Source: Eremomyces bilateralis CBS 781.70
Taxonomy: Eukaryota
Length of the DNA: 64,000 bases
Assembly: GCA_010015585.1 (NCBI GenBank)
Contig: ML975151.1
Strand: one strand, 5' to 3'
The notes under the pieces were generated by a model. That model saw only the letters and a list, made by a program, of their open reading frames with translations. It searched no databases and had not been told where the DNA came from. Below, one piece after another: positions 31,412 to 54,633 of this stretch (its first letter is position 1; each line of letters begins with the position of its first letter). The translations under genes were made by a program, and so were the position numbers.

Positions 31412-33227
31412 ATGTCACTTCCTAAGGTCTTTCTTAGCTCTCTACTATTGCTTCCTGTTATTATATTCGCCGGCAAGTGCCCGGATCTTGCTGGAGACTT
31501 GAAGCAGAAGTTGTCGTCTGGGGTGACAATTGAGAGCAACGATCCTACGGTAACACGATGGAGCGAATATGGAGCTCCAAAACCCGCATTTGTCGTCAAT
31601 GTTGCGGCCGAGAAAGACGTTGCAGCCACAGTAAGAGCCATCCTCTGTTTCACGTCTCTACTCCTTATAAAGATGAATGGGGACTTCGTATTTCTGTCAG
31701 CGGATCAACCCCTTGCCGGGCTGCATAGGGAACTTCTTTCTCGCGATCAAGAGCTTCCGAAGTATACCTATATCCAGTCGCATTATCGAGGCCGTGCAAC
31801 TGTCGAGTTTAAGACTTGCTTCGCTGAAGAACTGCTCGATAAAATCAGGAGAGGAAGCGACAGTTGACCCGGCAGGCATCGTGGAAGACTGTTACTCGTG
31901 ACCAGACCTTATTCTGACATGGATGACCAGGTTAAATATGCCGTTTCTAAGAATATCCAATTCTTAGCGCAAGATGGAGGCGCAGGATGGGCGAAGACTT
32001 CCACGATTGATAATTGCGATGTTGTGATCAACATGCGGAAACTGAACCAGGTGACTGTGAGCGGCGACAAAACCACACTTACACACGGAGGCGGTGCGAT
32101 CACATCCGAAGTTATCGACGCTGCCTATGCAGCAGGCGTTCAAGTCATCAGTCCCAATTGCAACTGCGTTGGCAATATGGGTGCGTACCTTGGTGGTGGA
32201 TATTCTCGGTTAGCCGGCAAGTACGGGTTAGGCGTGGACAACCTGCTCTCCGTCAACATGGTCAACGCAGACGGTGATCTTCGCACGGTCACAGAAAAGA
32301 GCGATCCGGCCCTGTGGTGGGCTATCCGTGGCGCAGGACCAAACTTTGGCGTCGTCACCAGTGCTACGATTAAGGCGTACGAAGTCCCACAGGAGAAGAA
32401 CACCGCGTGGCTAGGGGGCCTCATCTTCACCCAAGATAAGATTGAAGCCTTGGTGACGGCGATTAACAACCTGAAACTTCAATCGCAGATGGCAATTTTC
32501 CTGTATTACGCGACCTCGGAGGGGGAGCCCAATGTCATTACGTTCCCTTTCTGTGCGGGTTGCACTGCGGAGGAAGGAAAAAAACTATTTGCATCGATAT
32601 ACGCACTCGAACCTGTGGCCGATACAACTGCCGTCACTCCTTTCAACGAAGTCAACGCTGGCGGCGATACGTTTTGCGAGTTTGGAGGCCGTAAACCTGC
32701 CTATGGCTCGGGGATGGCAAAATTGGACCCCGCAACTTGGAGAGGGATTTGGGATGACTACGTTGCCTGGCTGAAGAATCCTGGAACCGAAGCTAGTACC
32801 ATATTGATGGAAGCGTACAGCATGGATAAAGCAAGAAGCATATCGACGAACTCTGCGTCGTTTCCGCACCGAAATACGATCAACTTCCATGGAGTCGCCC
32901 TGCCGTGGTACACTGATGCCGCGCTTGACGGCGAAGCGGAGTCGTTTGCCAACAAAGTGAGGACCCGATTGAGGGCTACGGATGGTCTAGGAAAGGACAG
33001 CTCGTGAGTTTTCGCATGGCATATACACGCACTGGGGAGGTGAATAACCTGTGAACAGTTACATTAACTTTGCTCATGGGGATGAATCTCTTGAAATAAT
33101 CTATGGCGACAGCCTCAGCAAACTCAAGGCCACGAAGGCTGCCAATGACCCAAAGAACGTTTTCAATCAGTGGTTTCCACTTTCGAAGGGCCGCTCCAAC
33201 CAGGCTCCTGCTACTGATGAGGCATGA
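31412..33227 (+). CDS. Secreted FAD-linked oxidoreductase (BBE-like / FAD_binding_4)
   Basis: Signal peptide, CVGNMGAYLGGG, YGLGVDNLLS, LWWAIRGAGPNFGVVTS, and BBE tail YINFAHGDE...DPKNVFNQ. Introns ~31631-31930 and ~33004-33058. Confidence 0.9.
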
Positions 33228-33879
33228 ACGGTTCGGATGAATGTGGATATCCTTATTTTGTACAGTTTTGGCGCTTAGGACTGGCTAGGATAGCCTGGGT
33301 ATGTCATGCTTTCACTTTTTTGCAGGCCAGGCTTTTGAATAGCATGCCCACCATTACTTACCAAGTACGAGACGAGCGCATTCCTCGGCAAGGTAGAATT
33401 TCCCGCTTTGCAGTCTAATATAACGTCAAGACACCACCATGCAAACGCTTAACCTTTGTGAGATACGTGTGATAATAGACGGAATGGTCGATCGGTGGCC
33501 ATCTATGCTTATACCAAACGGTCTCTCTGACTGGGGCGAGGACCAAAAGTATAGCTGCATATCCCAATTAAGATACAGGATCGGTCTGCTGAAGTTGAAA
33601 TATAGACGGTGCTACTTCAAAAAATCCTCCCAAGCGCAATAGCAACGATGTACGCATGGTTTTTCAGAGACAGGAACCCAAGCTCGCATAATGGAGTATT
33701 CAGCAGTGGTACTATGAAAATAAGGCTTCATATGTTCCATGGCATCTTAGTGAGGCCTCCCAATAGACATTCTACTCCGTTCATATATCGAGAGGAAACT
33801 TGGAAAAATTGTACCCTGTAAAGAAAGAAAACCCGCTTGATAGCTAACCATAAACACGTAATCGGTCATGGAGGGGGGA

Positions 33880-35688
33880 CTATATATGTTCCCGCTCCCA
33901 GCGCATATCCCTGTGGACATGAATCGAATGAAGCGAGGGTGCGGTACCTCGACTCATCCGGCTGTATTCACCCTGCTCTTCTTGAACTCTTTCATCCTCC
34001 CCTTTTACCCCTCTGAGCACTGACCAGTGACGGCGATCTGCGCTGCTAGCAACTTCATCCTCAGGAGAGAAGTCTAGCTTCGGACTGGGGATTGTCGTGG
34101 AGTTCAAAGAGTTATGCAATGTCGCAGACGAACTAGTGTTGTTTGTTTCGGTCACGGTCGCGTGATACAGGGCGCCGAGTTCCAGATCCGAACCTTTATC
34201 GTCATCCATTGAACTGTTCCTGGCCTTGTCAGATGAAGGAGTGGGAGAGTTGCGCGAGGTTCCATCTATCCTATAACTAGGCTTCTGTGCATCGGCTGTA
34301 AGGTTTCCAAACGAACTGCCTTTTGATGTGCTTCTTCGTGAACCGCCAGTAATGGAGAGAGGAAGCCATTTCAGTAGGACAGGTCTCAGTGTTGGGAGAC
34401 AAGCTGAAATACAAGATAGGGAGCCCTCGATCGTGGACCAGTAAAATACTGGAGTGGTGTAATCTGGAAACGTATGTTAGGAGAGCTATTGCGAAAATCG
34501 ATACTCTGCATCTTACAAGTTACATCGTCGAAGTGGACCATCAGATCCCTGCCAACTTGAATGAAGACGATGAGTCGAGCGAGTGACGCAGCAACAACAC
34601 TGTTAATACCATTAGCTGCCACGCTCCAAAAGTTCTTCCTGAGATACTAACCAGCCACCAAGGAGAAACATGCCACCAACAGCAACCTTCTGTTGCAGAG
34701 GCAGCCTGAGATTCCAGACCATCGGCAGCGGCAGCGCCAAGATGATAAAATCTGTTACAGCATCGGTGACACTGATCGCCCAGTAAAACGAAACGACGTC
34801 CACGCAATAGTTTGCGTATTCATATTCGAACTTCGTCCATATTACTGATATCGGGATGCATTGGCATAGATCGGCAACGAGGAAGCCCAGGGCCCAGACC
34901 AAAACCACGCCAATCATCACGTCGACAACAGTCTGGAATGGTTTTGTGACGAAAATACGCCGATACAGAAAAAGGACAGAGAGTTTGCATATTCCCAAGA
35001 TCGAGAGATTTAGGAGGTGGATAACAATCTTCATCTGTAGTTGACGCCAGTTCAATCAGCTTTGTCCTGCATGGGCACAACTTATGATGAGTTGGCCAGA
35101 AACCTTGACGGATGACAAAAGAGCGCAGCGACAGCCGGAATGCGAAGACACCGTGGCTATCACGAATATAAACCGAGAGACAGATCAAAGCAGCTCAAAG
35201 GCAGCTGAACCCATTCCAAACTTAAAATATCCCTTGATGGCCGCAGGAAATAGCTTACCTTTTCGTAATTGACCAACTCCCGATGCATAATCAGTTGTCC
35301 ATCAGGGCCAAACACTTTGCTTTGATGCGATCCCAATTCTCCATGTATGGCATCTGCTCTGAACGTTAGCAATTACTCAACTGAGTCGAGAGAGTAAAAC
35401 CCACCAGCGATCAGAACTGTTCCTATCGCAAGGTTGAATATCTGAGCCAAAATAGTGCTGTCAGCATCATCTCATCCATGGACTCGTCCATCTAATAGCG
35501 AGCCGCGTCTCTTGGATGTTATGAACATATAGACGTACCACTGCGGGAATGATAAGCCAGTCGTCAACCTTGAATGGCGCTCGAGTAAGACGCCTGGCGT
35601 AGAAGCGAAGGAGAACAAAAGGTATTGGCAAAGCCCCAAAAATGGCACCCAGCGCAATTACCTGACCCTTCGAGTACCCAGCAGTCAT
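33880..35688 (-). CDS. Pth11-like rhodopsin-domain integral membrane protein (CFEM-less)
   Basis: VLLRFYARR...DDWLI, KLSVLFLYRRIF, CQCIPIS, TDFIILALPLPMVWNLRLP...K...GMFLLG. Multiple introns. Confidence 0.85.
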
Positions 35689-36917: not shown

Positions 36918-38429
36918 CTACATATCCACGGGTTTTGTTTCCTCTGGCTGCCAGACAGCTTCGATGAACCCAAGAGCAGAGCCTTCAGGCGTCCATGCAT
37001 TCAACATTTTGAATCGCGGGTCCGTCATTGCGAACAACCCCTTCCACTCGCCGAGTTCTCGTTCCCTGGAATTTAAAATCTCGATCTGTGTTATGTCAAC
37101 TACCCTACGCGGAGTCAGTCCATCCAAATGTTACAGCTTCTGTTCATACTGACCGTGCTCTCGTCTCGCTCCACCACGAAACAGTCCCAGGTTCCGGCAG
37201 AACATAGTCGTTGATTAAGATTCGTGCCCCAGGCTTCAAAGCGGGGATCAAGTGCTTCAAAAGTTGCGCGGCATTGCTATCTGCATACCCGTGCATGATC
37301 CATCGGAAGTAATAAATATCCGCGTCCTTGACTGGTTGCTCAGTAAAGAAGTCGTGCGACATAAACTTCACACGGCTGGCCCATTCTTCATCCGGAAGTG
37401 CGGGAACCGATTCAATGATCATAGGAAGATCCTGAATGATGAAGTTGATATCACCAAATTCTTTCGCCAATGCAATTGGGATGGAGCCATGCGAACCACC
37501 GATATCGACAATGGAGGCAGCTGGTGGGAGGGAGCGCCAAGGATACCCTTTCAGCACATGGTCTGCACTGTATGTTGGATTCGCGCTATATGCACCCATC
37601 GAGTTTGCGAACCGCATACCCCGGTTGGGCTCCGCGGCCAGGACGTGGTAGATAGAAGAAGTCGAGTTATTTGCCAACGTGAACCCCTGAGAGAAATGAG
37701 TAGGTTCCAAAAGACAAGGTTAGTGGGGTGTCGATACCGTCTCATGCGGGAGATCCGACTTTTGCCATTTCTGAAGTGCATCAACAGTCTATTCTGGAAT
37801 TATCAGTTTTCTGCTGAAGCAGAAGGAGAACAGCCAAGGAGCACTCGACTTTGGTAGCGGCTGGCCAAAGATCTTCCACCGAGACGGCAAGGAAGTCACG
37901 CATCTGCTCGTCTTCGAGAAGAACCCTGGAGACAGCATTGTGAGCAACCATTCCAGGTTGGGGCTCTATAAAGAGTCTTCTCAGAATGGCATGGCGGAGA
38001 AGCCGTTGAGCAACATGCTCGTGTATGCCACACGAGGCAGCAAGCTCAGCATAGGAGATTTTCTTGTCAATGGGAATCCGGTTTGCGATCCCATATCGAA
38101 TGATAGCTTGCGAACTGATCAAGTCGTTGTGCTAAAGGGCCAGTTACCATACTGATCAGAATATAAACCGTCGTCTTCGGCGATAAGCTTACATGCTCGC
38201 CCATGACTTGGATGAGTTCTCGTGGTCCGATCAGCAGATCGTGCAGCTCCTTTGTTGCTGATAGGACTGTTTCCCGAGATTTTCTCAAATCTCTTGAGTC
38301 TGCATTGGACAGCCAATCTTGCGCGTTCACATCCCATGAGGGAGGTGGGCAGCCCTTGGCTTCCAGACAACTCTCAATGACGTCGACATTGTCCAAAATG
38401 CTCTGGGCAAGAGATCGGAGGGATGACAT
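36918..38429 (-). CDS. SAM-dependent O-methyltransferase (Methyltransf_2, secondary-metabolism type)
   Basis: N-terminal dimerisation region (ISYAELAASCG...RLLRHA...VAHNAVS), IVDIGGSHG, QDLP, HDFFTEQPVKDADIYYFRWIMH and ERELGEW. About 4 introns and the frame appears intact. Confidence 0.92.
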
Positions 38430-40061
38430 GATTCAAGCAACGAATTGAAAACAGAGCAGGTATATCTGTTGATCGTTTTGTCGTGTCAATAAATCACGGA
38501 AGCAATAGGATACCTGTTCAGAGGCAGTGAGATACTTGTATATAGTCAGAAGCACACAGTTTACCTCAGGGGTATATATACCCAGGCTTATGTAATCTTA
38601 TGTAATATACAGTATATACTGTCTACAAGATGCGATGACTAAGTAATAGCTTCGGATCTCCGACAATATCCTCCTACCCTTAGTTCCTGTGGTGTGTGAA
38701 ATATACAGGACTTTATGGGTCGAATAGGGGAGAGCCGTGGGGAGCATCAAAGACGGAGAAGAGGAAGGTATACAGACGCTTGACCTATTAGCTTCTTTTG
38801 CACAAATATCCAGACTGGCATTGGCGTTAATCAAGTCGCAATCGGTAGAATAACAGCGGAACAAGAAGCATCCGCTACCTGCTTTTCCAAGCAGGTCCCT
38901 AGCTTGTAAGCCGTTGCGGAGCAGGAGAGGTTGGCAGCGGATATTGCATAGCTTGATGGAATCATTGCATCGTCTCCAGCACCTGTACTTCCGTACGGTG
39001 TCGTCTCTGGTGTTGGAGCGATGTGAACCACAGTCCACATGAAAGGTGATCGGAGACCGAAGAATTGAAGCAACCCTACACGAATCCTAGTAACGGAATG
39101 CAGGTCTCGGGCCTAGCCGAGAAGGGCTGCCTGTAGGTATCCTCACTATCCTGCGTCCTAAAGTTTCACTCTTTAGAATTTAGATGAGTAAGATTTGCTG
39201 TCAAACCAATCCGACCTCACACATCGTCAATCCCGCATCAAAACGGCCACGTGCATGTGACTACCCCTGGCCAGGCATTTTGGCAGCGACGCCATAGTCA
39301 CGCGACAGCCACTCATCCCTGCTCCCTTGCCATTGCGACTGCCAGGCATCAACAACAATCGGAACACATTCGAGAATCTCTGTCCTCGCGCTTCGGGATT
39401 TCAATTCCCAGCCTATTATTGTTCATCCCGACCATGTTCCGAAATCAAATAGCATCTTGGGACCCACTACCAGGAATGGAGTTCGACTGCCAGCCTTGGA
39501 AGCTGAAAGTGACTTCTACGTCGTGCCATAATAACGCGCCGACAACAAGGCACATGTGGCACCTCTGGTGATAGCACCGAACAATCCACGGAAAGGCGAC
39601 GCATCTAACTACAAGAGTTATCCAGCCTCATTATGGTTCCACGAATAATGAAATGTTTGTATGGGTTGTAAGTCCTCCAAGCGTAACTCAGCCGCTGGCG
39701 GTCTATTTGCTGTGGAGATGGATTGGCCCTACAGGTGGGGTGGTACATGTACAGCCCACGGGATGATCAGCAATTGATGATCTATATCCGGAGCCTTCTA
39801 TGGCACTTCCGTCTGGGCGGATTCCGGTTTTACTCTAAACCCCTCCAGTGCCGGCCGTTATTTGGAATGAGCGAACGGTAAGTCAAGCCGAGATCGAGCA
39901 AGCCAATGCTTACTCGCTGTGGCATATTCTACCATAAGTTGGTTCTATATCCCGGCGAATCCTTGGAGAGAAAGGTTAGGATTCTACAAAATCGTTGTGA
40001 CCAAGAACACTACCCCATAAACTTCATATATCATCAGTTTCTTAAGCATTTCGTTTTCTAA

Positions 40062-40782
40062 ATGGTGTTCGCATTCTTGAACAACAAGACGCAGTCATAT
40101 TCAAAGCTTGAAACAGGCGAAAATGGCGAAGAATCAGCTACTCACCAGTCACACCAAACTTTTGGACGTTGGAGAGCCGTCGTTGGAGTTCTTGTCCTCG
40201 TTTGTATTTCCGCTGCCACTGGGTTCCTCACTGCAAAGTGGTGTGACTCTGGTCCAAAACACTATGGCGAGTCTGTTCTCCTCCGTAAGTCTGAAAATGT
40301 CACTACCTATACAAACCCTCTAAGGCATATCAGCACCATCGGGTTCCATCACCACAGTAATGAAATACAACCGAACGTTTTCGGATCCACCATCTGAAGA
40401 CACTTCCCAAGCTTGGAACGGGATCTATCCAAAAGGAGTCGGATTTGTTCAGCACCCAACCCTCGCGCCTGAGCCTTCAGGCCTCTCTGTTTTCCATCAA
40501 CTCCATTGTCTGGACGCTCTGAGGATTGCTTATTATACCGCGCTGCAAGGCCATCCTTCTCATCCAACCTCACATGCCGATCATAACGAACATGATGACC
40601 CCCACCATGTGCGGCACTGTTTTGACTATATCCGCCAGAGCCTTATGTGTCATGCGGACACTAACTTGGAGCCTGTGGATCCAAAACTTGGAGGCACCAC
40701 AGGTTGGGGAAGTCCTAAGACGTGTCGAGACTATCATTCCGTGAAACAATGGGCTAAACATTGGATGGCAAGAAAGGAGTGA
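40062..40782 (+). CDS. DUF3328/UstYa-family oxidase #1 (223 aa)
   Basis: N-terminal TM helix, intron 40285-40333, twin HxxHC motifs FHQLHCL and HVRHCFDYIRQSLMCHADTNLE, and GWG...CRDY. Confidence 0.93.
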
Positions 40783-41220
40783 TTGGAATTTTCTTTGCGT
40801 TTAGGGTATTCAAGAATATAATTTGATGAATCCATCAATCCTATGCAAGTACAATAGCCGTAATGGAAATGAACATGTATCTTCAGAACCATGCGATTAA
40901 TACTAATGCTGTGCTCGGTAAACCTCTATAATCGCAGCAAAGCAGTAGTACATAGACGGCCAAGGGTGTAATAATCTCATTGTTGAATGAAACATGATAT
41001 TTTATTTTCTACCCTTGCTCATCTCGAGTTATGAAGTATAAATCCCGAGCTCGCGCTCCTGAAGTGAATTAATCAGGAGAACAGAATCGCACATTCGTTG
41101 GAAATAAACGTCCACGAAGCTATTCCTTCAAACGATAAATCTAAATCATACGCACTCTGCGTACAGTGATCCAATGCCAACGCCAGTCATACATGCAAGC
41201 CCAAGCAAGAATTTGGACTC

Positions 41221-42069
41221 TCAGTTCTCCCCAGGCTGCAGAAGTAGGTTTGGTTCCAGCAGGTCTAACGATCGCTCCTTCACCCACCCCATCAGGTTGT
41301 CCATATTGGCACATGAGTGATACCCTGTATCCTCCGCGGCAGTAACCCACCCCTTACTAACATCCATCCAAGCAAAGGTGTTTAAACTTGTGTCCGCCCG
41401 ACACATGGTGCTGACACGGATGTTTTCGATGCAGTGGTCGACATGCACCTTATTCTCCACGTATGCTTCCGAGCCCACTGTCAGATTTGGGTAATAGAAG
41501 TCTTTGTATATCCAGTGTCGGATCTTCTTCAGGCAATGCAGTTCATGATGCATTCCTAGAAGCCCGATGTAGTCACCGCTGCCATCGGCTAGCTTCAGGC
41601 TGTCGACCTCCGCATACTGGAGATCTTTCGCAGACACGCGGATATTGACTCGATCAAACAGGCCATGCCATGCGTTGTCTAGCTCCGGGGACGGGTCTCC
41701 GACAAACGGGTTATGCGATAGCTTCACGGGAAGCTTTTTCTTCTCGAACTGGACGACTTTCGGGTCCTCTGCAAGTGAAGGGAAAAGATCAAGAGAGCGA
41801 CAGTGAAGGCCCCTTTGAGACAATTGGATATAGAGAAAGAGGAGCAGCAGAAGAGTGCAAAGACAAGTGAAGGCGAGTGCCCATATCGTCCAGATAGCCC
41901 GACGATATGCCCGGCGAAGACGCGTATGGGATTCCGGTTCGGTAGGATGGAAGTTTGTGTCTGGAAAATCCTGATAGACTTGCGGATAACGTGGAAGTGT
42001 ATCGAACGATGATGTCTCCAGGAGACCTTCCTTTACAGAATCATCGTCGTGGCTTAAGAATGGTGGCAT
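41221..42069 (-). CDS. DUF3328/UstYa-family oxidase #2 (282 aa)
   Basis: TM helix, FVGDPSPELDNAW, HHELHCLKKIR, HVDHCIENIRVSTMCRADTS and H-S-C near the C-terminus. Confidence 0.93.
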   Translation of the reverse strand: MPPFLSHDDDSVKEGLLETSSFDTLPRYPQVYQDFPDTNFHPTEPESHTRLRRAYRRAIWTIWALAFTCLCTLLLLLFLYIQLSQRGLHCRSLDLFPSLAEDPKVVQFEKKKLPVKLSHNPFVGDPSPELDNAWHGLFDRVNIRVSAKDLQYAEVDSLKLADGSGDYIGLLGMHHELHCLKKIRHWIYKDFYYPNLTVGSEAYVENKVHVDHCIENIRVSTMCRADTSLNTFAWMDVSKGWVTAAEDTGYHSCANMDNLMGWVKERSLDLLEPNLLLQPGEN

Positions 42070-43512
42070 CTTCGGGGCGGTAAGGTAGATTGGAGAATGA
42101 TGTGCCGTTCAAATCGGTCGATGATACGAAGGCAGTGGCTGGGAAGGCACTCGCGGATTCCAAGAACAGCTCAAGAGATGAAGGATTCCAGTCCAGGGGA
42201 GATATGAGCACGTATTTCCCATCGCCCGAGGCATGGAGATCCGATAATCTATGGAGGTTCAACCAGCAAGCCATATCAACAAATACTAACGTCAGGATAG
42301 CAAGATTAACCGACACACAGCAACTTGGACGATAACCCAGTTATTCCTTAGAGCTTACAAGGATGGATGGAGACGGAGAGGCTGAAGTCTGAACGGATTA
42401 TGATGATCCCGTGTTTGATGCTTCGAAGTTCGAGATGCATCGTGGAATTCGGACTCCGTTCATCGTGATGTGTCGTTGGTTTTCCCGTCGACCAGGATCA
42501 TCCAGTCACTCCGATTTTGTGTCATGCACGACAGTCGACCTCACCCGAACATTCATCCCTCTACCACAGTGAACTCATTCCTCTTAAGACGAATGCCAAT
42601 GAAGGCAAGTTTATCACAATTACCGCCTATCCAATTAGCATTCGATCAAGCCGTTTCAACGTTTCGTTCCGCTTGCCGTTGTGATCCCCACGGTCTTAGC
42701 GTAACTGTGAGAACCCGAAGAGGGCTGAGGGCATTCCGCAATGTGGAATTTCCCGAGAAGATGTTGAAACAGTGGAATAGGGAAGATACTCGTTCTAGAT
42801 TCCCCGATATGTTAGCCGGAACTCAACGTGATACGCTCCAGCTTTGGCTGCTAAATGGATGTCCCCCAGCCCTGATCCTGTCGCCCCAAGTGGCACATCT
42901 GAATCCTCCATTCTCCGATGGACGACGCATGGTCAAACTGAGGCTGATCTTTTCCATCTCATTTTTATGAACCTAGCTGGCCTATGAATACTTCCGTTCT
43001 TATTCGCTCCCCTAGTCCATGCTTTTTAGCGTTGCAAATGCCGCATCCCCGCTTAATGGATCCATCTAGCCACCTGATACAATTCACAATGGCTAAGAAG
43101 GCAGTAACCACTAGAGGGTTGATGCCGATCGCATTTGAATCTAACAGGATGTGACAGAGTCGCCTTCTCCGTCTCCATCCTAACAATAACCCACGCCTAT
43201 CTACGGAGTATTAAGGACCCCCCTGGAGGCGGCACTTGTACCTTGAAGAATGAGGGATTAAGACTAATACTTCCCTGTCCAATTTGTCCGTCAGAACCAA
43301 ACCGGGATTGCTGAGGTGGCAAACCGGTGCATATATGAGATAGATGCTCGCTGTTGTCATCTTCATTAGCCACCTGCATCTTCCTCCATATCGTCCACGT
43401 CTGCTGGCTGGGCTCCGATCAACGTCAACGGCTTTCATTCCAAGCAACACCCAAAACCCACCATCCTCAAGAACAATACCAACCAATCAGTCACTATATA
43501 CTTCTCCTTATC

Positions 43513-43992
43513 ATGAAGACTCAAGGTGTCCTCCTCTTGACTGCCGCCCTCTGTGGCAGTGCGGCTATCGCTGCTCCTGTTGCTGCCCCTGCCTATGACC
43601 CCTGTGCTGGGAAGGTCACGTTTGGCGTCTCCATGGGCTCAGTGGGCCATTGTATTCGCTCTGCCATCCCTTCCAAGCAAACGTTAGAGAAACGAGGAGT
43701 TGATGGCGACGATGCCGTCGTATATGCATGGAAGGTTCCGGAAGAGAAGGAGAAGCGTGAGGACGGCGATGATGCTGTCGTCTACTCCTGGAAAGTCCCG
43801 GAAGAGAAGGAGAAGCGTGAGGATGGTGATGATGCTGTCGTCTACTCCTGGAAAGTCCCGGAGGATAAAGAGAAGCGTGAGGACGGCGATGATGCTGTCG
43901 TCTACTCGTGGAAAGTCCCAGAGAAGGAGAAGCGTGAGGATGGCGATGATGCTGTCGTCTATTCCTGGAAAATTCCGGAGGAGAAAAACTAG
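43513..43992 (+). CDS. Kex2-processed repeat protein; putative dikaritin RiPP precursor (159 aa)
   Basis: Signal peptide MKTQGVLLLTAALCGSAAIA. Five KR-preceded repeats DGDDAVVY(A/S)WK(V/I)P with acidic/basic tails. Adjacent to two DUF3328 genes. Confidence 0.9.
   Translation: MKTQGVLLLTAALCGSAAIAAPVAAPAYDPCAGKVTFGVSMGSVGHCIRSAIPSKQTLEKRGVDGDDAVVYAWKVPEEKEKREDGDDAVVYSWKVPEEKEKREDGDDAVVYSWKVPEDKEKREDGDDAVVYSWKVPEKEKREDGDDAVVYSWKIPEEKN
43687..43989 (+). repeat. Coding tandem repeat, five units of ~57-63 bp
   Basis: Unit gagaagcgtgagga(c/t)gg(c/t)gatgatgctgtcgtcta(c/t)tcctggaaagtcccggaagagaag, with mostly synonymous variation between copies. Confidence 0.95.
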
Positions 43993-44419
43993 ACTCCAAC
44001 TTGTTGTGTTGACCATGGCGTTGGAGATGCGTATTGCTGGAGGGTTGGTTGTTCTGCGCGAATATCTGTGTTCGGGTCTTGGGAAGCGGAGCATATATTA
44101 CAACATTGAAGGATGTCCCGAATCTGTTCAGGGCTTACTTATTTCACTGTTCCTTACTTGCGTTAGTGGAAAATAGAACCATTTTTCGAAATGTACAAAT
44201 GAATCGATAAAAAGAATTTCCAGCTTTTACTTCCTCGTCGACTCAGTGGCTGCCCAATGCAGTCGAGTACAATGCAATATCACAATAACGAACTTATACT
44301 GGTTGGACGATGTAGTTGACATCTTGTAATAAGAGCACTCGGCCAAGGAGAAGGATATGAAATGGGACCATCAATAGAGAAGAGAATCGTCAAACTGGCC
44401 ATTATACTTGTATGTAATA

Positions 44420-46079
44420 TCAATCTTTTATAGCAGCTCTCACACCGAGAGCCGCACCTTCTGCTGCTTCGGTCACATCGAGTTCGCCCGTCAACGAGCC
44501 CCAGTGTTCCCAACCTTTTCTTATCGGTTTTCCTTCGGCTGTCCAAGCTTTGTTCCAAGCGAGGACTTGCGATACCAGACCTTCCAGCGTTGTCCAGCTG
44601 CCTTCATATTCCAATCCGCCATCATTTTTGCTTCGCCTGGCACTGGAGTCATCCCAAACTGCGTGTACTGAGGTGATGTAAAACAGACTCGGCACAAGAT
44701 ACAATTTTCCATCTCTGCCAAGAGGCGGAAGTTTAAGAGCAGCAGTGATTGTAGGATATCGAATTTGAAAGAGATAATACGCCTCAATCGGATACGATAT
44801 CAAGAAGGGCAGGATTCCAGGAATGTAAGGGAAGCTCACTGGAGAAACCGAAAGGGTTTCCAAAACTTTATACATGTCCCCAAAGGTAATGGAGGGGTTG
44901 GGATCGGTGACAGCGAATGTTTCTCCTCCAATGTCGGGCATCTGAGAAGACGCGGGTGGCGAGAGGAGGTCTATGAGGCGTGCTTCATATAGCAAGTGTG
45001 CAAGGGACACGTGCTGGACATGTACAAAGTTCTGTAGGATGTTGTGCAACCAGCTGACAACGTTAGCATAAAATTATGGACACCAAAATGGTAGAGACCA
45101 ACCTAGGGGATCCTCCATTTCGAAGCATTTGTCCTCCTTGAAGATCATCCTCGTCACCATATACAGCTACATGCTGTCAGCTCAGCCGCTTACAATCCGA
45201 ACCGATGACACTATACCATTGACAGGCCAAATGCAACCGGTCCGGAACCCACCGTCAGGATCATCGGCTCGTTGAACCAGTTTCTCGGCCTGAAACTTGG
45301 AGTATGCGTAGCAACCGAAAAATTCCTCAAGTTTAGAAAGATACAAGCTGGGCTCATGGTCGCACAATGGTTGAACAAAACGTGCAGGATACTTTTGCCA
45401 AGGCCACATCCAGAGCCCAGGTCGAGCTATGAGAACAGATCCAGAAGATGTCATGAGAAAGACCGATGCACCAACAGCCTTAGAGGCTTCGAGTGTGTTC
45501 TGAGTCCCGTGGATATTGATCCGTTCATATGGTCCCATGGTATCATGTGTCCGGTCAGTTGTTCTGACGATCGCGACAGTGTGAAACACTGTCAGGGGAA
45601 GTTTGGAAGCGCCATCATCCCAAGCGGTTGCAAAAGCGTGTGCAAGTGACTCTGGATCGGTCACGTCTACACTGATAAACCTGATTGCCTCAAGTCCTCC
45701 TTTCACAGGGGGTCTGATATCGAAATTGACAATTGTCCGTGAATCTTCTCCACGTTGGAGTAAGTGTCGGAGAATCCAACCTCCCACAAAACCTTATTCA
45801 CTTGATGAGCCTTGACCACCTGGGAACAAATGCTAGGTACTTACCTGAACCGCCAGTAACGACATACCTCCGACCGGTCCGAGGAGGTAAATGGTCTTTC
45901 AAGTCCAAAGTGCGGCCTTCTAGCCGCCTTGCGCACTCACGGATTTCCGTCGAGGTGAATCGGTGGGGACTAAGCTTCCGGGCTTCGTCTGGTAAGCTTG
46001 ACAATGCTCGGTTCACCCTAAGCAGATAGATGAACAGAATAGTTAGAAGCAGCAAAAGAGGTCCGATTATCCACCCCAT
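44420..46079 (-). CDS. Extended SDR / 3-beta-HSD-like NAD(P)-dependent epimerase-dehydrogenase with an N-terminal membrane anchor
   Basis: VVTGGSG|FVGGW Rossmann motif, TVFHTVA, NIHGTQN, TSSGS and YAYSK catalytic motif. Three introns restore the frame. Confidence 0.85.
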
Positions 46080-47156
46080 GGTGTCGAATGGTTGTGTTAA
46101 CCTCACTGGTCCGATCACAATGGAAGGAGTAGGTGATAGTATGCACTTCGAATCTTTCTAGACTGGATGACGATAAAACCGAGCGGTTGAACTCAATATC
46201 TGACAATGTAAATACAACGCAATCAGAGCCCAAGGTCCACCGTACCGTAGGTTCTTTTCATTGAAACTGGATTATTCAGACAGTAGCCTACCTTGTCGGT
46301 TCAAACGAAGAGTCCTGCAAATTATAACCGTGTTGAATTGAGATAATTCCGGTCTCCCGATTCCTTTTCCCGTCATATCAACGTGAGGTACATTGTCCAG
46401 GATCATCGTTCTGGACAGGACCCGATTGGTTGACGCTCTCAGGTGAGTCCAATTGGCCGAGGCGGATGTACGATTGGGTATTGCGTGGTTAGACAGCCAT
46501 CGATCGCATGAAATCGATCCCAGTGAGGAGAATTCATATGAAAGCGGCGGGATTTCCCAATTCATGGCTGGTCGGGTTCGGGGCTTCGTGCATCTTAAAT
46601 TTTCAAAGGTTCGAATTTGATGAAAGGACTCCCTGTCAGCTTACTCAGCGGTACAGTGGTCGGGACCTTCACGCTCGACACTCGACAGAGATAGAATGAA
46701 TCCTAGCACGTGTAAGCTAAGCCTAGAGAGGAAAACACTCTCAACCGGAAGAAGACAAAAGTCCCTCGCTCCTTTCGACTTTTCCGATATCCTATCGTGG
46801 CTTTAGGAACCAATCAGAGTACAGGTAGCGTACCAACAACGGGCTTTCTTGTTTGGACTGCAGTGTTCCTGTTATGCTTTCTTTGCATACAGGATTACCT
46901 GTCCGGCACATGTACAGGGTTGTACTATGGCGTTTTGTTATGGTTGAATGAACTATACTTGGATGTAGACGGGAAACTCACTGCGTCGATAGCATGATAT
47001 GCTATAGAGTCGTCATCTGCTCGTTGTAAAAGAAGCGGACCTGGTATCAACTTCTCCCTGAACAATTGTTCTGTTCTATCGATTAGAAAGAATAGGCATA
47101 CCCCAGTCCCCCCTTCCAAGATGTCTATCTTTATTTCAATGTACAAAGAAAAGAAC

Positions 47157-48203
47157 ATGGCACTTCCGCTTGTGCCGCCGAACGAGGGTGGAACTTACAT
47201 TATCACAGGGGCAAACACAGGACTTGATTTCGAGTGTCCTCAAAACTTGGTTCGCCTGTCGGCGGGTAGGGTAAAACTCGCCGTCCGCTCCATAGATAAA
47301 GGTGAGAGCGCAAAGGTGAGGATCGAAGCAGAACCGGATGAAATGGAGTTGCGGAAGTAGAGCCTCTCGACCTCACCTCCTACGACTCAGTCAAGGGATT
47401 CGCCAAGAAGGTCCGGAGTTGGATCGAATCGACGCGGTCCTCGAGAATGCGAGTATTGCAGTGGATTCTTATACAATCTCAGAAGGGTTTGAGACGAGCA
47501 TAGCTGTGAATGTTGTCAGCACCATACTGTTGGCTCTGTTGGTCTTGCCGAGACTGCAAATCAGCGGGAAAAGCATGGTCTCACACCACATTTGGTGGTC
47601 ACAGGAAGCGGTGCAGCGTTATCCGCAAAGGGGCAGCTGGAGAAGGTGGAGGGCAACATACTGAAAGGACTGACCTACAACACTATGGGTGAAAGGTGAT
47701 ATTCTTTCCTCGAGTTGCCCGCCTAGAACAAATCTTCTTAACAGAACCCAAAGATATTTCGTCACCAAGCTTTTGCAACTATACGCGGTCCAAGAGCTCG
47801 CCGCCCTCAAACCGTGTTCGGAGACCGGAGTAGTCATAAGCTGTGTCAACCCCGGATTCTGCAATACCGGATTGAGTCGACACGCCCGCTTCACAAAACG
47901 GATCGAGATGAATTTGATGCAGTTCCTCGTGGCGACAACTGCGGATCAGGGCCGCAGGACCATATTGCACGCAGCCACTGCAGGGAAGCAGAGTCACGGC
48001 AAATATTTGTCCAATTGCGAAGCTGCAGAAGAGTAAGTTCTTCCACGCCATACCTGATTGCAATACTCATTTCACGGACCAGAGATCCGCTCCTATCATT
48101 TGTTACAAACGAGGCTGGTATGGTGATGCAGAAGCGGGTGTGTGACAGCATCTCAAGGAAATTGAATGAAATTCAACCCAGGTGTTTCCAAGAGGATCGT
48201 TAG
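47157..48203 (+). pseudogene. Frameshifted classical short-chain dehydrogenase (retinol-DH-like)
   Basis: TGANTGLD (Gly replaced by Asp), LAVRS...KGE, LDLTSYDSV, NVVST, YFVTK and VNPGFC occur in different reading frames without intron signals at the shifts (~47340, ~47420, ~47570). Confidence 0.75.
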
Positions 48204-49554
48204 AGTTTGGAATTGCGGTTTGCTGCTCGAACAGGCTTCGAAAGCTTTGCGACGTTGGCAAATTTCAGCCCGGTTCATTTGTATACGCAGATGTTCCGAC
48301 GGTCGAACCGAGAGTCACGAGAGAGAAGATCGGTCTATTCGCTGCCGTGCGTCAACATAGAGCTTTCTTCGGCCCAGGCGGCCACTAATATTATCATGAA
48401 TGGACAATAACTGCGGCTATCATTGTGTTTGGAGGTGTCTGACGGTATTGACCGTCTCCGTAGATTCTGGTGCCCGAATCGATATCTAGGTTCGATAAAT
48501 GGAAAGTGTATCAGGCTGGGTGAAAGGCCTGGCTTGCCCATGTGGATTTCCGAAGTTGCAGGTCCACTGTGTTCATATTGTCAGTAGGAAACTACCATCA
48601 CATCTCACAAACTTACAGGCTTCATCACGCGGCACATGTTGATGCCATTTCAGCATCCCAACCTCCGCCGGATGATAGAAGTCCGGGGTTATACCTCTCG
48701 ATATATGATAATAGCAAAGACTTGGGGAGGATCAACATCATCCGCTAAGCTGCATCCGCACTTCAGCCTTGCATTAATGAATGCGAGCTCTCATGCGTGA
48801 TCGCACTTCCCATGGAAACAATAGAGGCTATTCCTAACTGTTGGAGGAATAGCACAGCCATAGTCCACTTTCGAGTTACTTCTGCCTAGATTCTTTCCTT
48901 TCGTTACATGGCTGCGTATCAGGTGCCGAAGAGCCCCATTGATCTTGTCATTTTCTACAAACTGGAAGCTCGCTGTGGCTGTTGTCCCTTTCGGAAATTA
49001 CTGTGGTCAGAGAGGGATACCTGAGCAACGATGATGCCAAACCTCCCATTCATGGTCTGCAGGTCTTCCCTGGCGAACCCCTTCGGGACTTCGCTGGTTG
49101 AAAAGTAGTCGAGGAGATGAAGCTGGGTGATCAAAACTTGTTGCTGACAGCTCCAGAAGCCTCGATGTCTAATTCGGTTTCTAGGCTTAACCAAATTCGG
49201 CCATTGCCTGCGCCCGCAACAAGGTTTGGGGGAAATAGGCGCCAGCCTTGCGCTATGGGAGCGTCAGCAAATAACAACACCATAACTATAACAAATGGAT
49301 CTTATGGCTGACTGCGCGTCACCCTGAGATTCAAATTTTTGCCGTTTCGAGCAGTGCTTCGGGAGTAAGGCAGAGTAAGGAGAGGAAGAGAGAGGATTCT
49401 TATGACCATGATAGCAACGTGTGCTATAGGATAGTATATGGATATTTCGCCTTGACAGGAACAATATCGTGAGCCTGCTTCGCATTGTTGAAACTCCGTA
49501 CTCCATGACCGCTTGAAATCTTTCATCGGCCAGATTCCACGAAGATTATTCTTC

Positions 49555-50913
49555 ATGGCTCAAGACCTGGTATGTCCCCAGCTGTTCCTCATGGCGATGA
49601 CTCCTATCGATTCTCAACGATTGAAAATCACTAACTCTCTACTGTATCGGTAGGCATCGCAAATTCCTCTCTCTAGCACCGACCCTCCATTCAACCGCGA
49701 TGTTGATCTTACACTTGGCAAGTCATTAGGACAGCGCCCTTCAGGTTCACCATCTCAAGGCGGCGGGGGCGGAGTCGCATCCTCTGGTCCCCCAACTCAA
49801 GGCGATGGGGGTGGAGCCGCATTTTCTGGTTCCACGCCCTCCACCGACAATACTTCAGGGCAAGATGCGACGGTACCTGTGAACCACCGACCAAATGACC
49901 CTCAATCTCAATCGAATAGCGGTTCTGAAGCACCGCAACAGCAGCAAGCGATGTTACTAGACGTTGTCAGCGCGTCACTCCCAACAATATTTCAGAAACG
50001 CGACCAGAAAAGCCGCGAGAATCTAGTAACGGAAACGAAGGACGAGATCGCACAATTTGTGGTGCAAGACCTTGACGTGAAGCGATTGACCGACATTCAA
50101 GGACTGCTATGGATGGCCGGTCGGCCTCTGGCCGGCAGGCCTCTTCATCGACACAAAATGCTTGAACGGCGTATTTTGAGAACGGAGCAAGCCGACCTCC
50201 ATATGCTAGTGCTTGAACAATCGGTGTTTCTCAAACCACTGCCATTATATTTGCTGTCCCATGCATTCTTCCAAGATTACATCTCCAAAGATCAAGACCT
50301 GGCCAAGTCGGCCAATGGATTCTTACTGTCATATACCTGGCTTATACGCAGCGAATTGGATTTCCAGTTGGCACAAATGGAGAGCCTGCTTCCAAATACC
50401 GAGCCGCAAATCACTTGGCTGGAGTGGAAGTCGTTCGTCCATTCATTCTTAAAATATGTCGACCCGAACACTTTGGAGCAAGTAAACGATCGCTATCATT
50501 TTGGCGAACTGCGGTTGGGCCGAATCAACACCATCTATCGCATCGCCCCCCGATTTTTTTTCCTGCATTTTGTGCGTGGGTACCTGTACGGGTACAACCG
50601 GTACGGTCCGTTCTTTCAACGTCGGTTCGCATTTACGCTGGTCCTGTTTGTCTGGCTCTCATTGATTTTATCCGCCATGCAAGTAGGGGTCGCCGTGGAT
50701 CCCCTCATGAGCCACAGCGCATTTCAGCAAGCTACTTTTGGATTTGTCGTCTTCTCGATAGTCTTGGTCGCCTTCATCATCGCCATGCTCATGTTGCTTT
50801 TCGGTGTAATTTTTCTGATCAACATGGTGCTGGCTAGTTTCCAAGCCCGGCGAGAGCGACATGCACGAAGGCTAAGGGCTCAGAAAAGCAATGAGACCTT
50901 GTCAACAGAATGA
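49555..50913 (+). CDS. Fungal membrane protein of unknown function (DUF6601-like)
   Basis: LWMAGRP...RPLHRH...TEQADLH...FLKPLP...GFLLSY..LI..E.DF...RYHFGELRLGRIN plus two C-terminal TM helices. Short exon 1 MAQDL, intron ~49570-49653. Confidence 0.7.
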
Positions 50914-54192: not shown

Positions 54193-54633
54193 TGTGCGCA
54201 AGCCGTCCCCCTTCGATGGCCTGAGGCTTCATTCCGTAAATGCCCACCGAGAATGGGATCGAATTTATAAAACACCTATGACATGGTGGCATTAAAACGT
54301 CAAAACTTTGTGTAAACGATAGTATGATCGCCTCAGTAATTAACTCAGAGCAGTTAGGTTGTAATTTGTATCGTACAGAAGTCGAGGGGCTGGAGTCGAG
54401 TGGAGAAATGAGTTGGCGCAGAGTGCTCCGCCCTGTCCGATCACCATGCATGTTGTGATCAAAGCTCAGAGCTTCGTGTAACCACCATTCTCGGATCTCG
54501 AGAGTTTCCTACTCGGACATCGAACGTGCTATACAATTGAAGCATGGTGTCATTAACTCCCGCTTGATCGTGAACCGGATTTTAATGTCCATGGCATCGG
54601 ACACCTACCTCCCTCTTGCGGGTCACATCCGAG

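What the first reader, a model, noticed from the sequence alone, without database searches (positions are those of the whole stretch)
36918..46079. Candidate new fungal RiPP (dikaritin-type) biosynthetic gene cluster
Seen: a signal-peptide/KR-repeat precursor (43513-43992), two intact DUF3328 genes with twin HxxHC motifs, an O-methyltransferase and an extended SDR. These include two divergent pairs (OMT<- ->DUF3328#1 and DUF3328#2<- ->precursor). Established: a Kex2-repeat precursor plus UstYa/DUF3328 oxidases defines dikaritin clusters (ustiloxin, phomopsin, asperipin-2a, victorin, epichloecyclins). Inference: this locus makes a cyclised peptide. No tyrosinase (UstQ/PhomQ type), P450, NRPS or PKS is visible in the window, so the architecture is closer to the minimal asperipin-2a type.
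Basis: partly seen in the sequence, partly recalled or inferred. Interest (0 to 1): 0.9.

Follow-up and report, generated by a model that had tools for sequence, protein, structure and literature searches.

The report
Fungal cyclic-peptide gene cluster, Tyr-x-Trp core
This stretch of a soil or dung fungus genome carries a small secreted repeat-peptide gene beside two copper-oxidase-type genes, a conserved trio that most likely makes a cross-linked cyclic peptide of the ustiloxin type with an undescribed tyrosine/tryptophan core.

Summary
The locus holds a 159-aa precursor with a signal-like N-terminus and five KR-delimited repeats (DGDDAVVY[S/A]WK[V/I]PE). It also holds two intact UstYa/DUF3328 genes with twin HxxHC motifs, an O-methyltransferase and an extended SDR. 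Spliced contigs of a same-organism run confirm the introns of UstYa#1, the OMT and the SDR. A tool output names the organism as Eremomyces bilateralis CBS 781.70.

The precursor belongs to an unnamed family. 34 of 50 proteins examined share repeats of D-[GAS]-D-D-x-[VF]-[VA]-Y-x-W-x-x-P. Members occur in Talaromyces, Aspergillus, Penicillium, Cudoniella, Hypoxylon and several lichen fungi, all annotated as hypothetical. Both UstYa paralog types recur next to precursor homologs in metagenome contigs. They carry adjacent locus tags in two lichen genomes.

So the conserved core is the precursor plus two UstY oxidases. The SDR is absent from both loci that could show it, and OMT membership is untested. 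The most likely product is a Tyr/Trp (i, i+2) cross-linked peptide of unknown bond type.

Novelty is provisional. Two 2025 papers on DUF3328-made aryl cross-links (asperigimycins, and a "minimal" RiPP) could not be read. Verdict: new member of a known kind, of moderate interest.

The parts
43513..43992 (+). Precursor peptide gene, 159 aa, no intron. Residues 1-61 are a signal-like N-terminus plus leader ending in KR (43513-43695). Five core repeats follow at 43696-43992: GVDGDDAVVYAWKVPEEKEKR, EDGDDAVVYSWKVPEEKEKR, EDGDDAVVYSWKVPEDKEKR, EDGDDAVVYSWKVPEKEKR and EDGDDAVVYSWKIPEEKN.
   Evidence: Family membership.
41221..42069 (-). UstYa/DUF3328 oxidase #2, 282 aa, intronless, divergent from the precursor. 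HxxHC motifs at residues 175 and 209. N-terminal hydrophobic helix around residues 61-79.
   Evidence: PF11807 E 4e-41. Motifs and hydropathy. A discrete 1386-nt X3 contig spans 41013-42398. An ortholog lies in L003.
40062..40782 (+). UstYa/DUF3328 oxidase #1, 223 aa, one intron at 40285-40333. HxxHC motifs at residues 129 and 166. N-terminal hydrophobic helix around residues 39-57. Convergent with #2.
   Evidence: PF11807 E 2.5e-25. GT..AG joint in an X3 contig. Gene model. Orthologs in L003 and L001 at 53-55% identity.
36918..38429 (-). O-methyltransferase-family gene, 429 aa, four introns (37104-37152, 37686-37736, 37789-37849, 38132-38192). Divergent from UstYa#1. Its membership of the pathway is unverified.
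   Evidence: PF00891 E 1.6e-18. Four CT..AC joints in one X3 contig. Open frame after splicing.
44420..46079 (-). Membrane-anchored extended SDR of the 3-beta-HSD/epimerase type, 502 aa, three introns (45054-45102, 45167-45216, 45791-45842). Convergent with the precursor. Its adjacency is not conserved in L001 or L003.
   Evidence: PF01073 E 6.7e-12 and PF01370 E 3.6e-11. Joints. TGGSGFVGG and YAYSK motifs are visible in the spliced protein. N-terminal helix. No tblastn match in L001 or L003.

Best explanation
The core of the locus is a three-gene dikaritin-type RiPP module: the precursor plus two old UstY/DUF3328 paralogs.

Inferred pathway:
1. The precursor enters the secretory pathway.
2. 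Kex2-type cleavage after each KR releases five peptides of about 20 residues.
3. The two membrane-anchored UstY oxidases act on the conserved block. The literature describes this family as O2-dependent dicopper enzymes.
4. They cross-link the invariant Tyr to the invariant Trp two residues on, and probably perform a second oxidation.
5. The acidic flanks (DGDD upstream, PEEKE downstream) are trimmed.

Expected products are small Tyr-x-Trp macrocycles in three variants, from VVYAWKVP (one copy), VVYSWKVP (three copies) and VVYSWKIP (one copy).

Shown here: the genes are intact, the spliced ones are transcribed, the repeat peptide is under purifying selection, the precursor family exists, and it is linked to both UstY paralog types in other organisms.

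Inferred only: secretion, Kex2 processing, the cross-link and its bond type, and the boundaries of the mature peptide.

The OMT (possibly an N-terminal methylase like UstM/PhomM) and the SDR may tailor the product in this species. This is not established.
For: Gene content and motifs.

Spliced transcripts of UstYa#1, the OMT and the SDR are seen in run X3 and not in DNA run X1.

Selection on the repeat: 42 synonymous against 8 non-synonymous pairwise codon differences in the 13-residue block.

Exhaustive phmmer search: 49 hits at E<=1e-3. Counting the window's own precursor with those 49 hits, 34 of 50 proteins carry at least 2 acidic-YxW units. In the 92 units, D at position -7 occurs in 89 of 92 and P at +5 in 61 of 92. 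In the 14-sequence alignment A1 the invariant residues are D, DD, Y, W and P.

Linkage in other loci:
- L003 holds a UstYa#2-like gene, a UstYa#1-like gene and the precursor within 2.3 kb.
- L001 holds a UstYa#1-like exon divergent from a six-repeat precursor.

The two paralogs are 28% identical to each other. Over the best BLASTP segments, UstYa#1 is 53-55% identical to its counterparts in L001 and L003, and UstYa#2 is 50% identical to its counterpart in L003 (34% over the longer tblastn alignment). Both types are therefore retained.

Adjacent locus tags for the two types:
- Xylographa opegraphella MMC26_005167 and MMC26_005168.
- Acarospora aff. strigata MMC16_006705 and MMC16_006707.

The best named UstYa#1 homolog (64% identity, Aspergillus aculeatinus) sits on a contig of the same length (489,650 nt) as that species' precursor homolog.

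CRG89181.1 is flagged 'DUF3328 in vicinity' in PMC7329392 Table S2.

Enzymology from passages read:
- UstY/DUF3328 enzymes use a dicopper site and O2 to make the Tyr-O to C-beta ether of asperipin-2a (PMC12186524).
- Biaryl cyclophane formation has been extended to DUF3328 enzymes (PMC13185096).
Against: No product has been observed.

Transcription of the intronless precursor is not demonstrable. X3 covers all 30 bins, intergenic ones included, so DNA may be present in that run. The only specific hint is one contig ending in adapter sequence at 44177.

Contig depth cannot rank genes, so co-expression is untested.

The SDR has no counterpart in 2 of 2 loci that could show it.

In three named genomes the listed UstYa#1-like hits lie on other contigs than the precursor homologs. 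These are Cudoniella acicularis, Talaromyces islandicus and Hypoxylon argillaceum. Those hit lists are word-limited and incomplete, so this is weak evidence.

No transporter, S41 peptidase or tyrosinase is nearby.

The signal peptide rests on hydropathy alone.

The selection of units forced Y, W and an acidic pair, so only the other columns are independent.
Confidence: 0.75

Rival explanations
1. Same mechanism, but not new. The D-x-DD-x-V-V-Y-x-W-x-x-P precursors would be the family already characterised in 2025. That would be either the asperigimycins of Aspergillus flavus, whose title names a benzofuranoindoline (by my recollection a Tyr/Trp-derived ring system), or the 'minimal ribosomally derived natural product' made by DUF3328 aryl cross-coupling. 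This locus would then be an ortholog-level member.
For: PMC13185096 states that biaryl cyclophane formation was extended to DUF3328 enzymes. Its reference 14 is Chiang, Ohashi and Tang, JACS 2025, 147:48311. The title of Nie et al. 2025 was seen in a reference list. The invariant Y-x-W is the kind of motif such cross-links need. The Tyr/Trp origin of benzofuranoindoline is recalled, not taken from any call.
Against: No Aspergillus flavus protein appeared among the named members of the 30 hit clusters looked up. All named members are annotated 'hypothetical protein'. None of six core strings occurs in the text of any held paper. Neither key paper could be read, so this is absence of access and not evidence of difference.
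Confidence: 0.3
2. The full five-gene reading of the first reader: OMT and SDR are true pathway members. The OMT would methylate the peptide and the SDR would reduce or epimerise an oxidised intermediate, as the reductase AprR is thought to do for asperipin-2a.
For: Both genes are adjacent, intact and transcribed. The OMT shares a divergent intergenic region with UstYa#1. Methyltransferases act in the ustiloxin, phomopsin and epichloecyclin pathways (PMC11285071). A reductase is part of the asperipin-2a cluster (PMC6514808).
Against: There is no SDR homology in L001 or L003, and L001 has a housekeeping leucyl-tRNA synthetase at that position. OMT conservation could not be tested because both contigs end before that position. 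Adjacency alone is weak evidence in fungi.
Confidence: 0.35
3. The repeat protein is an ordinary Kex2-processed repeat protein. It would yield linear secreted peptides (pheromone-like, signalling or antimicrobial), and the UstY genes would be neighbours without a role in it.
For: 78% of KEPs in the census have no DUF3328 gene nearby, and many give linear peptides (abstract and passages of PMC7329392). An Atlas feature search placed alpha-factor precursors third at score 0.84, which is below the level that counts.
Against: The same two UstY paralog types recur beside precursor homologs in independent loci. Tyr is invariant, as in characterised DUF3328 substrates.
Confidence: 0.1
4. The UstY pair tailors a different, non-ribosomal substrate, as DUF3328 proteins do in cyclochlorotine biosynthesis. 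The precursor would be unrelated to them.
For: DUF3328 proteins perform hydroxylation, chlorination and transacylation in an NRPS pathway (passage of PMC12048977).
Against: There is no NRPS or PKS domain anywhere in the 64 kb. Linkage to the precursor family is conserved.
Confidence: 0.05

Closest known systems
Asperipin-2a cluster of Aspergillus flavus (aprA, aprY, aprT, aprR), as summarised in PMC6514808 (passages) and PMC12186524 (passage)
   Same: A KR-repeat precursor with Tyr in the core. A DUF3328 oxidase acts as cyclase without a tyrosinase. A reductase gene lies next door. The cluster is small.
   Different: Two divergent UstY paralogs here (28% identical) instead of one. No transporter within the locus. 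The reductase is a 3-beta-HSD/epimerase-type SDR, not an isoflavone reductase, and is not conserved. The core is VVY[S/A]WK[V/I]P with an invariant Trp, not FYYTGY.
Ustiloxin and phomopsin clusters (UstA/PhomA, UstQ/PhomQ, UstYa/Yb, UstM/PhomM); PMC6514808 and PMC11285071
   Same: Signal peptide plus KR-delimited repeats. Acidic residues flank the core. Two or more UstY homologs. A methyltransferase-family gene is nearby. The cross-link partner of Tyr lies at i+2.
   Different: No tyrosinase, S41 peptidase, P450 or FMO in the window. The i+2 partner is Trp, not Ile. Two conserved hydrophobic residues precede Tyr, whereas Tyr is N-terminal in YAIG and YVIPID.
KEP CRG89181.1 of Talaromyces islandicus in the 2020 KEP census (PMC7329392, Table S2)
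   Same: It belongs to the same precursor family (hit P0003, E 7.7e-19). The census flags it as having DUF3328 within 15 genes.
   Different: The census typed it '0', meaning stand-alone with no homologs, so the family was not recognised. Of the other 5 accession numbers searched (one of them the RefSeq id of a GenBank entry also searched), 0 are in the table. Eremomyces was not surveyed.
Asperigimycins (Nie et al., Nat Chem Biol 2025) and the DUF3328 aryl cross-coupling RiPP (Chiang, Ohashi and Tang, JACS 2025, 147:48311). Only titles and one citing sentence were seen.
   Same: Both are fungal DUF3328-dependent RiPPs with aromatic-aromatic cross-links. The invariant Tyr-x-Trp here would suit such chemistry.
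   Different: Unknown. Neither paper nor the precursor sequences could be obtained, so membership is untested.
TMC-95A, a fungal proteasome inhibitor (recalled from memory, from no call)
   Same: As I recall it, the molecule has a Tyr-x-Trp backbone with a Tyr to oxidised-Trp biaryl macrocycle. That is the kind of product a Y-x-W core could give.
   Different: Its biosynthesis is not known to me. The residues around Y and W differ. No held paper combining TMC-95A with the RiPP terms was listed. This is a lead only.

Membership tests
Dikaritin-type RiPP cluster (working definition in PMC9632046 methods) | [quoted passage not shown] | tested here: met
   MKTQ is followed by a hydrophobic stretch. 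The best 19-aa window is at residues 6-24 with mean hydropathy 2.09. No dedicated signal-peptide predictor was available.
Dikaritin-type RiPP cluster (working definition in PMC9632046 methods) | Tandem repeats of 10 aa or more separated by kexin (KR) sites | tested here: met
   Five units of 19-21 aa and five KR sites.
Dikaritin-type RiPP cluster (working definition in PMC9632046 methods) | A DUF3328 gene in close proximity | tested here: met
   Two PF11807 genes lie 1.4 kb and 2.7 kb upstream of the precursor.
Dikaritin-type RiPP cluster (working definition in PMC9632046 methods) | Linkage of precursor and DUF3328 conserved in other genomes | tested here: met
   L003 has both paralog types and L001 has one; L002 is too short to tell. 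CRG89181.1 is flagged in PMC7329392 Table S2. Only a few loci were accessible.
Dikaritin-type RiPP cluster (working definition in PMC9632046 methods) | A side-chain cross-linked cyclic peptide product | not testable with these tools
   This needs LC-MS and NMR.
UstYa/DUF3328 (PF11807) | Profile match above Pfam's gathering score | tested here: met
   141.7 and 90.1 bits against a cut-off of 25.
UstYa/DUF3328 (PF11807) | Two HxxHC motifs | tested here: met
   HQLHC and HVRHC in #1; HELHC and HVDHC in #2. The motif pair is named as the family signature in PMC12048977.
UstYa/DUF3328 (PF11807) | Dicopper, O2-dependent catalysis | not testable with these tools
   The property is taken from a passage of PMC12186524.
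Ustiloxin/phomopsin-type cluster | Tyrosinase (UstQ/PhomQ) | tested here: not met
   No tyrosinase domain at E<=1e-4 in 207 ORFs of the 64 kb.
Ustiloxin/phomopsin-type cluster | N-terminal alpha-N-methyltransferase orthologous to UstM/PhomM | tested here: inconclusive
   A PF00891 methyltransferase is present. Orthology to UstM/PhomM was not tested because no reference sequence was in hand.
Asperipin-2a-type cluster (aprA, aprY, aprT, aprR; PMC6514808) | A single DUF3328 plus a transporter in the cluster | tested here: not met
   Two DUF3328 genes are present. The nearest MFS gene is at 8301-10186, beyond eIF-2B, Mnd1, ZNF598, ornithine decarboxylase and ATG5.
Asperipin-2a-type cluster (aprA, aprY, aprT, aprR; PMC6514808) | A reductase partner (AprR, isoflavone reductase) | tested here: inconclusive
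   An extended SDR of another Pfam family is adjacent, but it has no counterpart in L001 or L003.
Asperigimycin-type and DUF3328 aryl-coupling RiPPs (2025) | Precursor core and cluster composition as published | not testable with these tools
   The papers are not held and no sequences are available.

The most novel reading that the evidence does not exclude
The D-[GAS]-D-D-x-[VF]-[VA]-Y-x-W-x-x-P precursors define an unrecognised dikaritin subfamily found in several fungal classes. The class assignment of the named genera is from my own knowledge: Dothideomycetes, Eurotiomycetes, Leotiomycetes, Sordariomycetes and lichen-forming Lecanoromycetes. In this subfamily two dedicated dicopper UstY paralogs would build a Tyr-Trp cross-linked macrocycle with no tyrosinase and no P450. 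The bond could be biaryl, an aryl ether or benzofuranoindoline-like. The Eremomyces lineage would carry a unique Lys-containing core (Y-S-W-K).
Probability: 0.3. Interest if true: 0.7.

Novelty: new member of a known kind. Interest (0 to 1): 0.55.

Why it matters
Dikaritins include potent tubulin poisons (ustiloxins, phomopsins) and a host-selective toxin (victorin). UstY/DUF3328 enzymes have only recently been shown to be copper oxidases.

This precursor family has an invariant Tyr-x-Trp and two co-inherited UstY paralogs. That gives a small three-gene system for asking what else these enzymes can couple.

It also points to ribosomal cyclic peptides in lichen fungi. A 2025 survey found UstY clusters there but no repeat precursor (PMC12048977).

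The value lies in the family-level pattern more than in this single locus. Genome mining has already listed 1758 KEPs with nearby DUF3328 genes (PMC7329392).

Tried and rejected
Genome and sequencing runs:
- No whole genome is held for the window.
- No RNA holder is listed for the stretch. Run X3 is only guessed to be RNA. I used its spliced joints and made no use of its depth.
- X4 and X5 laid nothing.
- Depth is one figure per contig, so co-expression could not be judged.

Protein and locus searches:
- The word-indexed homolog search found a single relative of the precursor. The exhaustive search was needed to see the family.
- L004, L005 and L006 from the metagenome scan are bacterial amidases and therefore false hits.
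- Pfam hits on the precursors (PKD_6, PKD, ROKNT and others) are either below the gathering score or have no matched stretch that passes on its own, so I took them as repeat-composition noise.
- The Atlas search gave nothing at 0.9 or above.
- Earlier findings of this scan returned nothing relevant.

Literature:
- Six core strings appear in no relevant held paper, nor in PMC7329392 or its supplements, nor in the lichen RiPP paper.
- The search for 'Eremomyces bilateralis' with 'RiPP' was swamped by 'ripple'.
- No held paper joins Eremomyces with DUF3328, ustiloxin or dikaritin.
- No TMC-95A paper with RiPP terms was listed.
- Papers not held: PMC13401907, PMC12143957, PMC11897777 and 10.1021/jacs.5c17946.

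Ideas rejected:
- The gamma-glutamyltranspeptidase (12.2-13.4 kb) and the MFS gene (8.3-10.2 kb) as cluster members, because housekeeping genes lie between them and the locus.
- A second, + strand SDR at 47.1-47.7 kb as a live gene. It gives only a sub-threshold adh_short trace, and the transcripts seen there are from the - strand.

Full report
OBSERVATION

The ORF at 43513-43992 (+) encodes 159 aa. It has a hydrophobic N-terminus, a 61-residue signal-plus-leader ending in KR, and five repeat units:
- GVDGDDAVVYAWKVPEEKEKR
- EDGDDAVVYSWKVPEEKEKR
- EDGDDAVVYSWKVPEDKEKR
- EDGDDAVVYSWKVPEKEKR
- EDGDDAVVYSWKIPEEKN

Tandem Repeats Finder gives period 60, 4.7 copies and 85% matches. The DNA copies differ mostly at synonymous sites: 52 synonymous against 19 non-synonymous pairwise codon differences. 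Within DGDDAVVYxWKxP the figures are 42 against 8. Selection therefore acts on the peptide.

Pfam confirms two UstYa/DUF3328 genes (E 4e-41 and 2.5e-25), a Methyltransf_2 gene and a 3-beta-HSD/epimerase-type SDR. Each UstY protein has two HxxHC motifs and one N-terminal hydrophobic helix.

A six-frame Pfam scan covered all 207 stop-to-stop ORFs of 90 aa or more in the window. It found no tyrosinase, P450, NRPS or PKS.

GENE MODELS AND TRANSCRIPTS

Contigs of run X3 come from the same organism and are labelled RNA only as a guess. They skip canonical GT..AG introns that the DNA run X1 does not skip:
- one intron in UstYa#1 (40285-40333)
- four in the OMT
- three in the SDR

Removing these introns gives uninterrupted frames of 223, 429 and 502 aa.

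UstYa#2 is covered by a discrete 1386-nt contig (41013-42398). For the intronless precursor, transcription cannot be proved. X3 has some cover in all 30 bins, so DNA may be present in it. The only specific hint is one contig ending in adapter sequence at 44177, about 185 nt past the stop. Depth is one figure per contig, so co-expression is untested.

ORGANISM AND SETTING

A homolog search returned a protein 100% identical to UstYa#1 exon 2. It is named hypothetical protein P152DRAFT_202628 of Eremomyces bilateralis CBS 781.70. It sits on a contig of the same length as the window's own UstYa#2. The species belongs to Dothideomycetes, order Eremomycetales.

The locus lies in a stretch of accessory-looking genes between housekeeping genes (ATG5 on the left, ribosomal protein L38 on the right). 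These genes are an FAD-linked oxidase, a fungal-rhodopsin-domain membrane protein, DUF6601, a Zn2Cys6 regulator and a HET protein. Whether any of them belongs to the pathway is unknown.

THE PRECURSOR IS ONE OF A FAMILY

The word-indexed search found one relative. An exhaustive phmmer search of 1.84 billion representatives found 49 proteins at E<=1e-3.

Most of the hits are short proteins, many beginning with a signal-like hydrophobic stretch, made of KR-delimited repeats. Counting the window's own precursor with those 49 hits, 34 of 50 proteins have at least two units with an acidic pair followed by Y-x-W. The other 16 are long unrelated proteins or repeat proteins without Y-x-W.

In the 92 units the pattern is D(89/92)-[GAS]-D-[DE]-x-[VF]-[VA]-Y-[TASG]-W-x-[VL]-P(61/92). 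Y, W and an acidic pair were required by my selection, so those columns are not independent evidence. In an unforced MAFFT alignment of 14 members the invariant residues are D, DD, Y, W and P.

Named members are all 'hypothetical protein'. They come from:
- Talaromyces islandicus
- four Aspergillus species of the aculeatus group
- Penicillium angulare
- Cudoniella acicularis (two)
- Hypoxylon argillaceum
- the lichen fungi Letharia lupina (two, five locus tags apart), L. columbiana, Xylographa vitiligo (two) and Varicellaria rhodocarpa

Lys at position +3 occurs in only 7 of 92 units, all from the window and its closest relative P0001. Y-[S/A]-W-K is therefore specific to this lineage.

LINKAGE WITH UstY GENES ELSEWHERE

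A metagenome scan gave three true loci and three false ones, the latter being bacterial amidases.

- L003 (3.4 kb) carries a UstYa#2-like gene, a convergent UstYa#1-like gene and, divergent from the latter, a precursor.
- L001 carries the first exon of a UstYa#1-like gene, divergent from a six-repeat precursor.
- L002 is too short to tell.

The two window paralogs are 28% identical to each other. Over the best BLASTP segments, UstYa#1 is 53-55% identical to its counterparts in L001 and L003, and UstYa#2 is 50% identical to its counterpart in L003 (34% over the longer tblastn alignment). Both types are therefore retained with the precursor. The order of the pair relative to the precursor is inverted in L003.

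In named genomes the two types carry neighbouring locus tags:
- Xylographa opegraphella MMC26_005167 and MMC26_005168
- Acarospora aff. strigata MMC16_006705 and MMC16_006707

The best named UstYa#1 homolog (64%, Aspergillus aculeatinus) lies on a contig of the same length as that species' precursor homolog.

Independently, the 2020 KEP census lists the T. islandicus member CRG89181.1 with 'DUF3328 in vicinity'. It types it as stand-alone, with no homologs. None of the other 5 accession numbers I searched is listed (one of them is the RefSeq id of a GenBank entry also searched), and Eremomyces was not surveyed.

Evidence against: in C. acicularis, T. islandicus and H. argillaceum the listed UstYa#1-like hits lie on other contigs than the precursors. 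Those lists are incomplete, so this is weak.

WHAT IS NOT CONSERVED

A tblastn search with the spliced SDR and OMT found nothing in L001 or L003. L001 has a leucyl-tRNA synthetase downstream of the precursor.

The SDR is thus absent from 2 of 2 loci that could show it. The OMT position lies beyond the ends of both contigs and is untested.

The conserved module is the precursor plus two UstY genes. The five-gene cluster is a hypothesis for this species only.

MECHANISM

From passages read:
- UstY/DUF3328 enzymes use a dicopper site and O2 to form the Tyr-O to C-beta ether of asperipin-2a (PMC12186524).
- They are needed for ustiloxin and phomopsin cyclisation, where Tyr is linked to the residue at i+2 (PMC6514808; PMC7329392).
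- They also hydroxylate, chlorinate and transacylate in an NRPS pathway (PMC12048977).
- A 2026 paper states that biaryl cyclophane formation has been extended to DUF3328 enzymes (PMC13185096).

By analogy I infer this sequence of events: ER entry, Kex2 cleavage at KR, cross-linking of the invariant Tyr to the invariant Trp at i+2 by one UstY, a second oxidation by the other, and trimming of the acidic flanks. The conserved DGDD may be the recognition element.

The bond type is open. It could be an ether to Trp C-beta, as in known dikaritins, or an aryl-aryl coupling.

COMPARISON AND NOVELTY

The locus meets the working definition of a dikaritin cluster (PMC9632046). It is not of the ustiloxin/phomopsin type, because it has no tyrosinase and the i+2 partner is Trp. 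It is only loosely of the asperipin-2a type, because it has two UstY genes, no transporter and a different, non-conserved reductase.

None of the core strings appears in the text of a held paper.

Two 2025 papers on DUF3328-made aromatic cross-links could not be read. These are the asperigimycin paper and a 'minimal' aryl-coupled RiPP paper. I cannot exclude that one of them already describes this family, and I put that at about 0.3. My link between benzofuranoindoline or TMC-95A and a Tyr/Trp pair is recalled chemistry, not a tool result.

VERDICT

This is a real, intact and at least partly transcribed dikaritin-type module. It belongs to an unnamed precursor family found in several fungal classes, with a Tyr-x-Trp core. 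It is a new member of a known kind and of moderate interest (0.55). Its main value is a compact, testable three-gene system.

Noticed in passing
window 38461-38650: A short high-copy element lies in the OMT/UstYa#1 intergenic region. DNA run X1 depth rises from about 240 to between 2109 and 6857, and many contigs break here with loose ends. It is probably a dispersed repeat or a transposon remnant.
   Followed up: no
window 46080-49094 (- strand): One X3 contig joins the SDR transcript to an upstream - strand transcript with four more introns (46925-46981, 47071-47198, 47504-47674, 48567-48616). That transcript has no ORF longer than 97 aa. It overlaps + strand ORFs at 47121-47664 that retain only a sub-threshold adh_short trace (E 0.0014, 18.6 bits against a cut-off of 26.6). 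This looks like a non-coding or read-through RNA over a decayed SDR gene.
   Followed up: partly
window 40062-40333: The public gene model of UstYa#1 (P0115, 201 aa) starts in another frame and lacks the N-terminal membrane helix. The intron seen in run X3 joined to the ATG at 40062 gives 223 aa with the helix. The deposited N-terminus is probably mis-modelled.
   Followed up: partly
window 43579-43695 (precursor leader): The leader contains two Cys in YDPCAGKVTFGVSMGSVGHC. The closest homolog P0001 keeps them, but more distant family members do not.
   Followed up: no
window 31406-33428, 33883-35688, 49654-50910, 52993-54228, 54586-56244: An FAD_binding_4 oxidase (spliced in X3), a fungal-rhodopsin-domain membrane protein, DUF6601 (spliced in X3), a Zn2Cys6 regulator and a HET-domain protein fill the space between housekeeping ATG5 and ribosomal protein L38. 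Any of them could belong to the same accessory island.
   Followed up: no
window 4914-5293: A run of 380 N, either an assembly gap or a masked stretch.
   Followed up: no
P0035 (Botryosphaeria dothidea) and P0039 (unnamed, source ENA): These repeat precursors keep the acidic flank, but the place of Y-x-W is taken by Y-A-Y in P0035 (DGDxxVVYAYAP) and by Y-T-I-Y in P0039 (D[PA]D[DG]AYTIY). They may be sister families with a different cross-link partner.
   Followed up: no
Letharia lupina HO133_002508 and HO133_002513 (P0059, P0053): Two precursor paralogs lie five locus tags apart on one contig. This suggests a cluster with two precursor genes in this lichen fungus.
   Followed up: no
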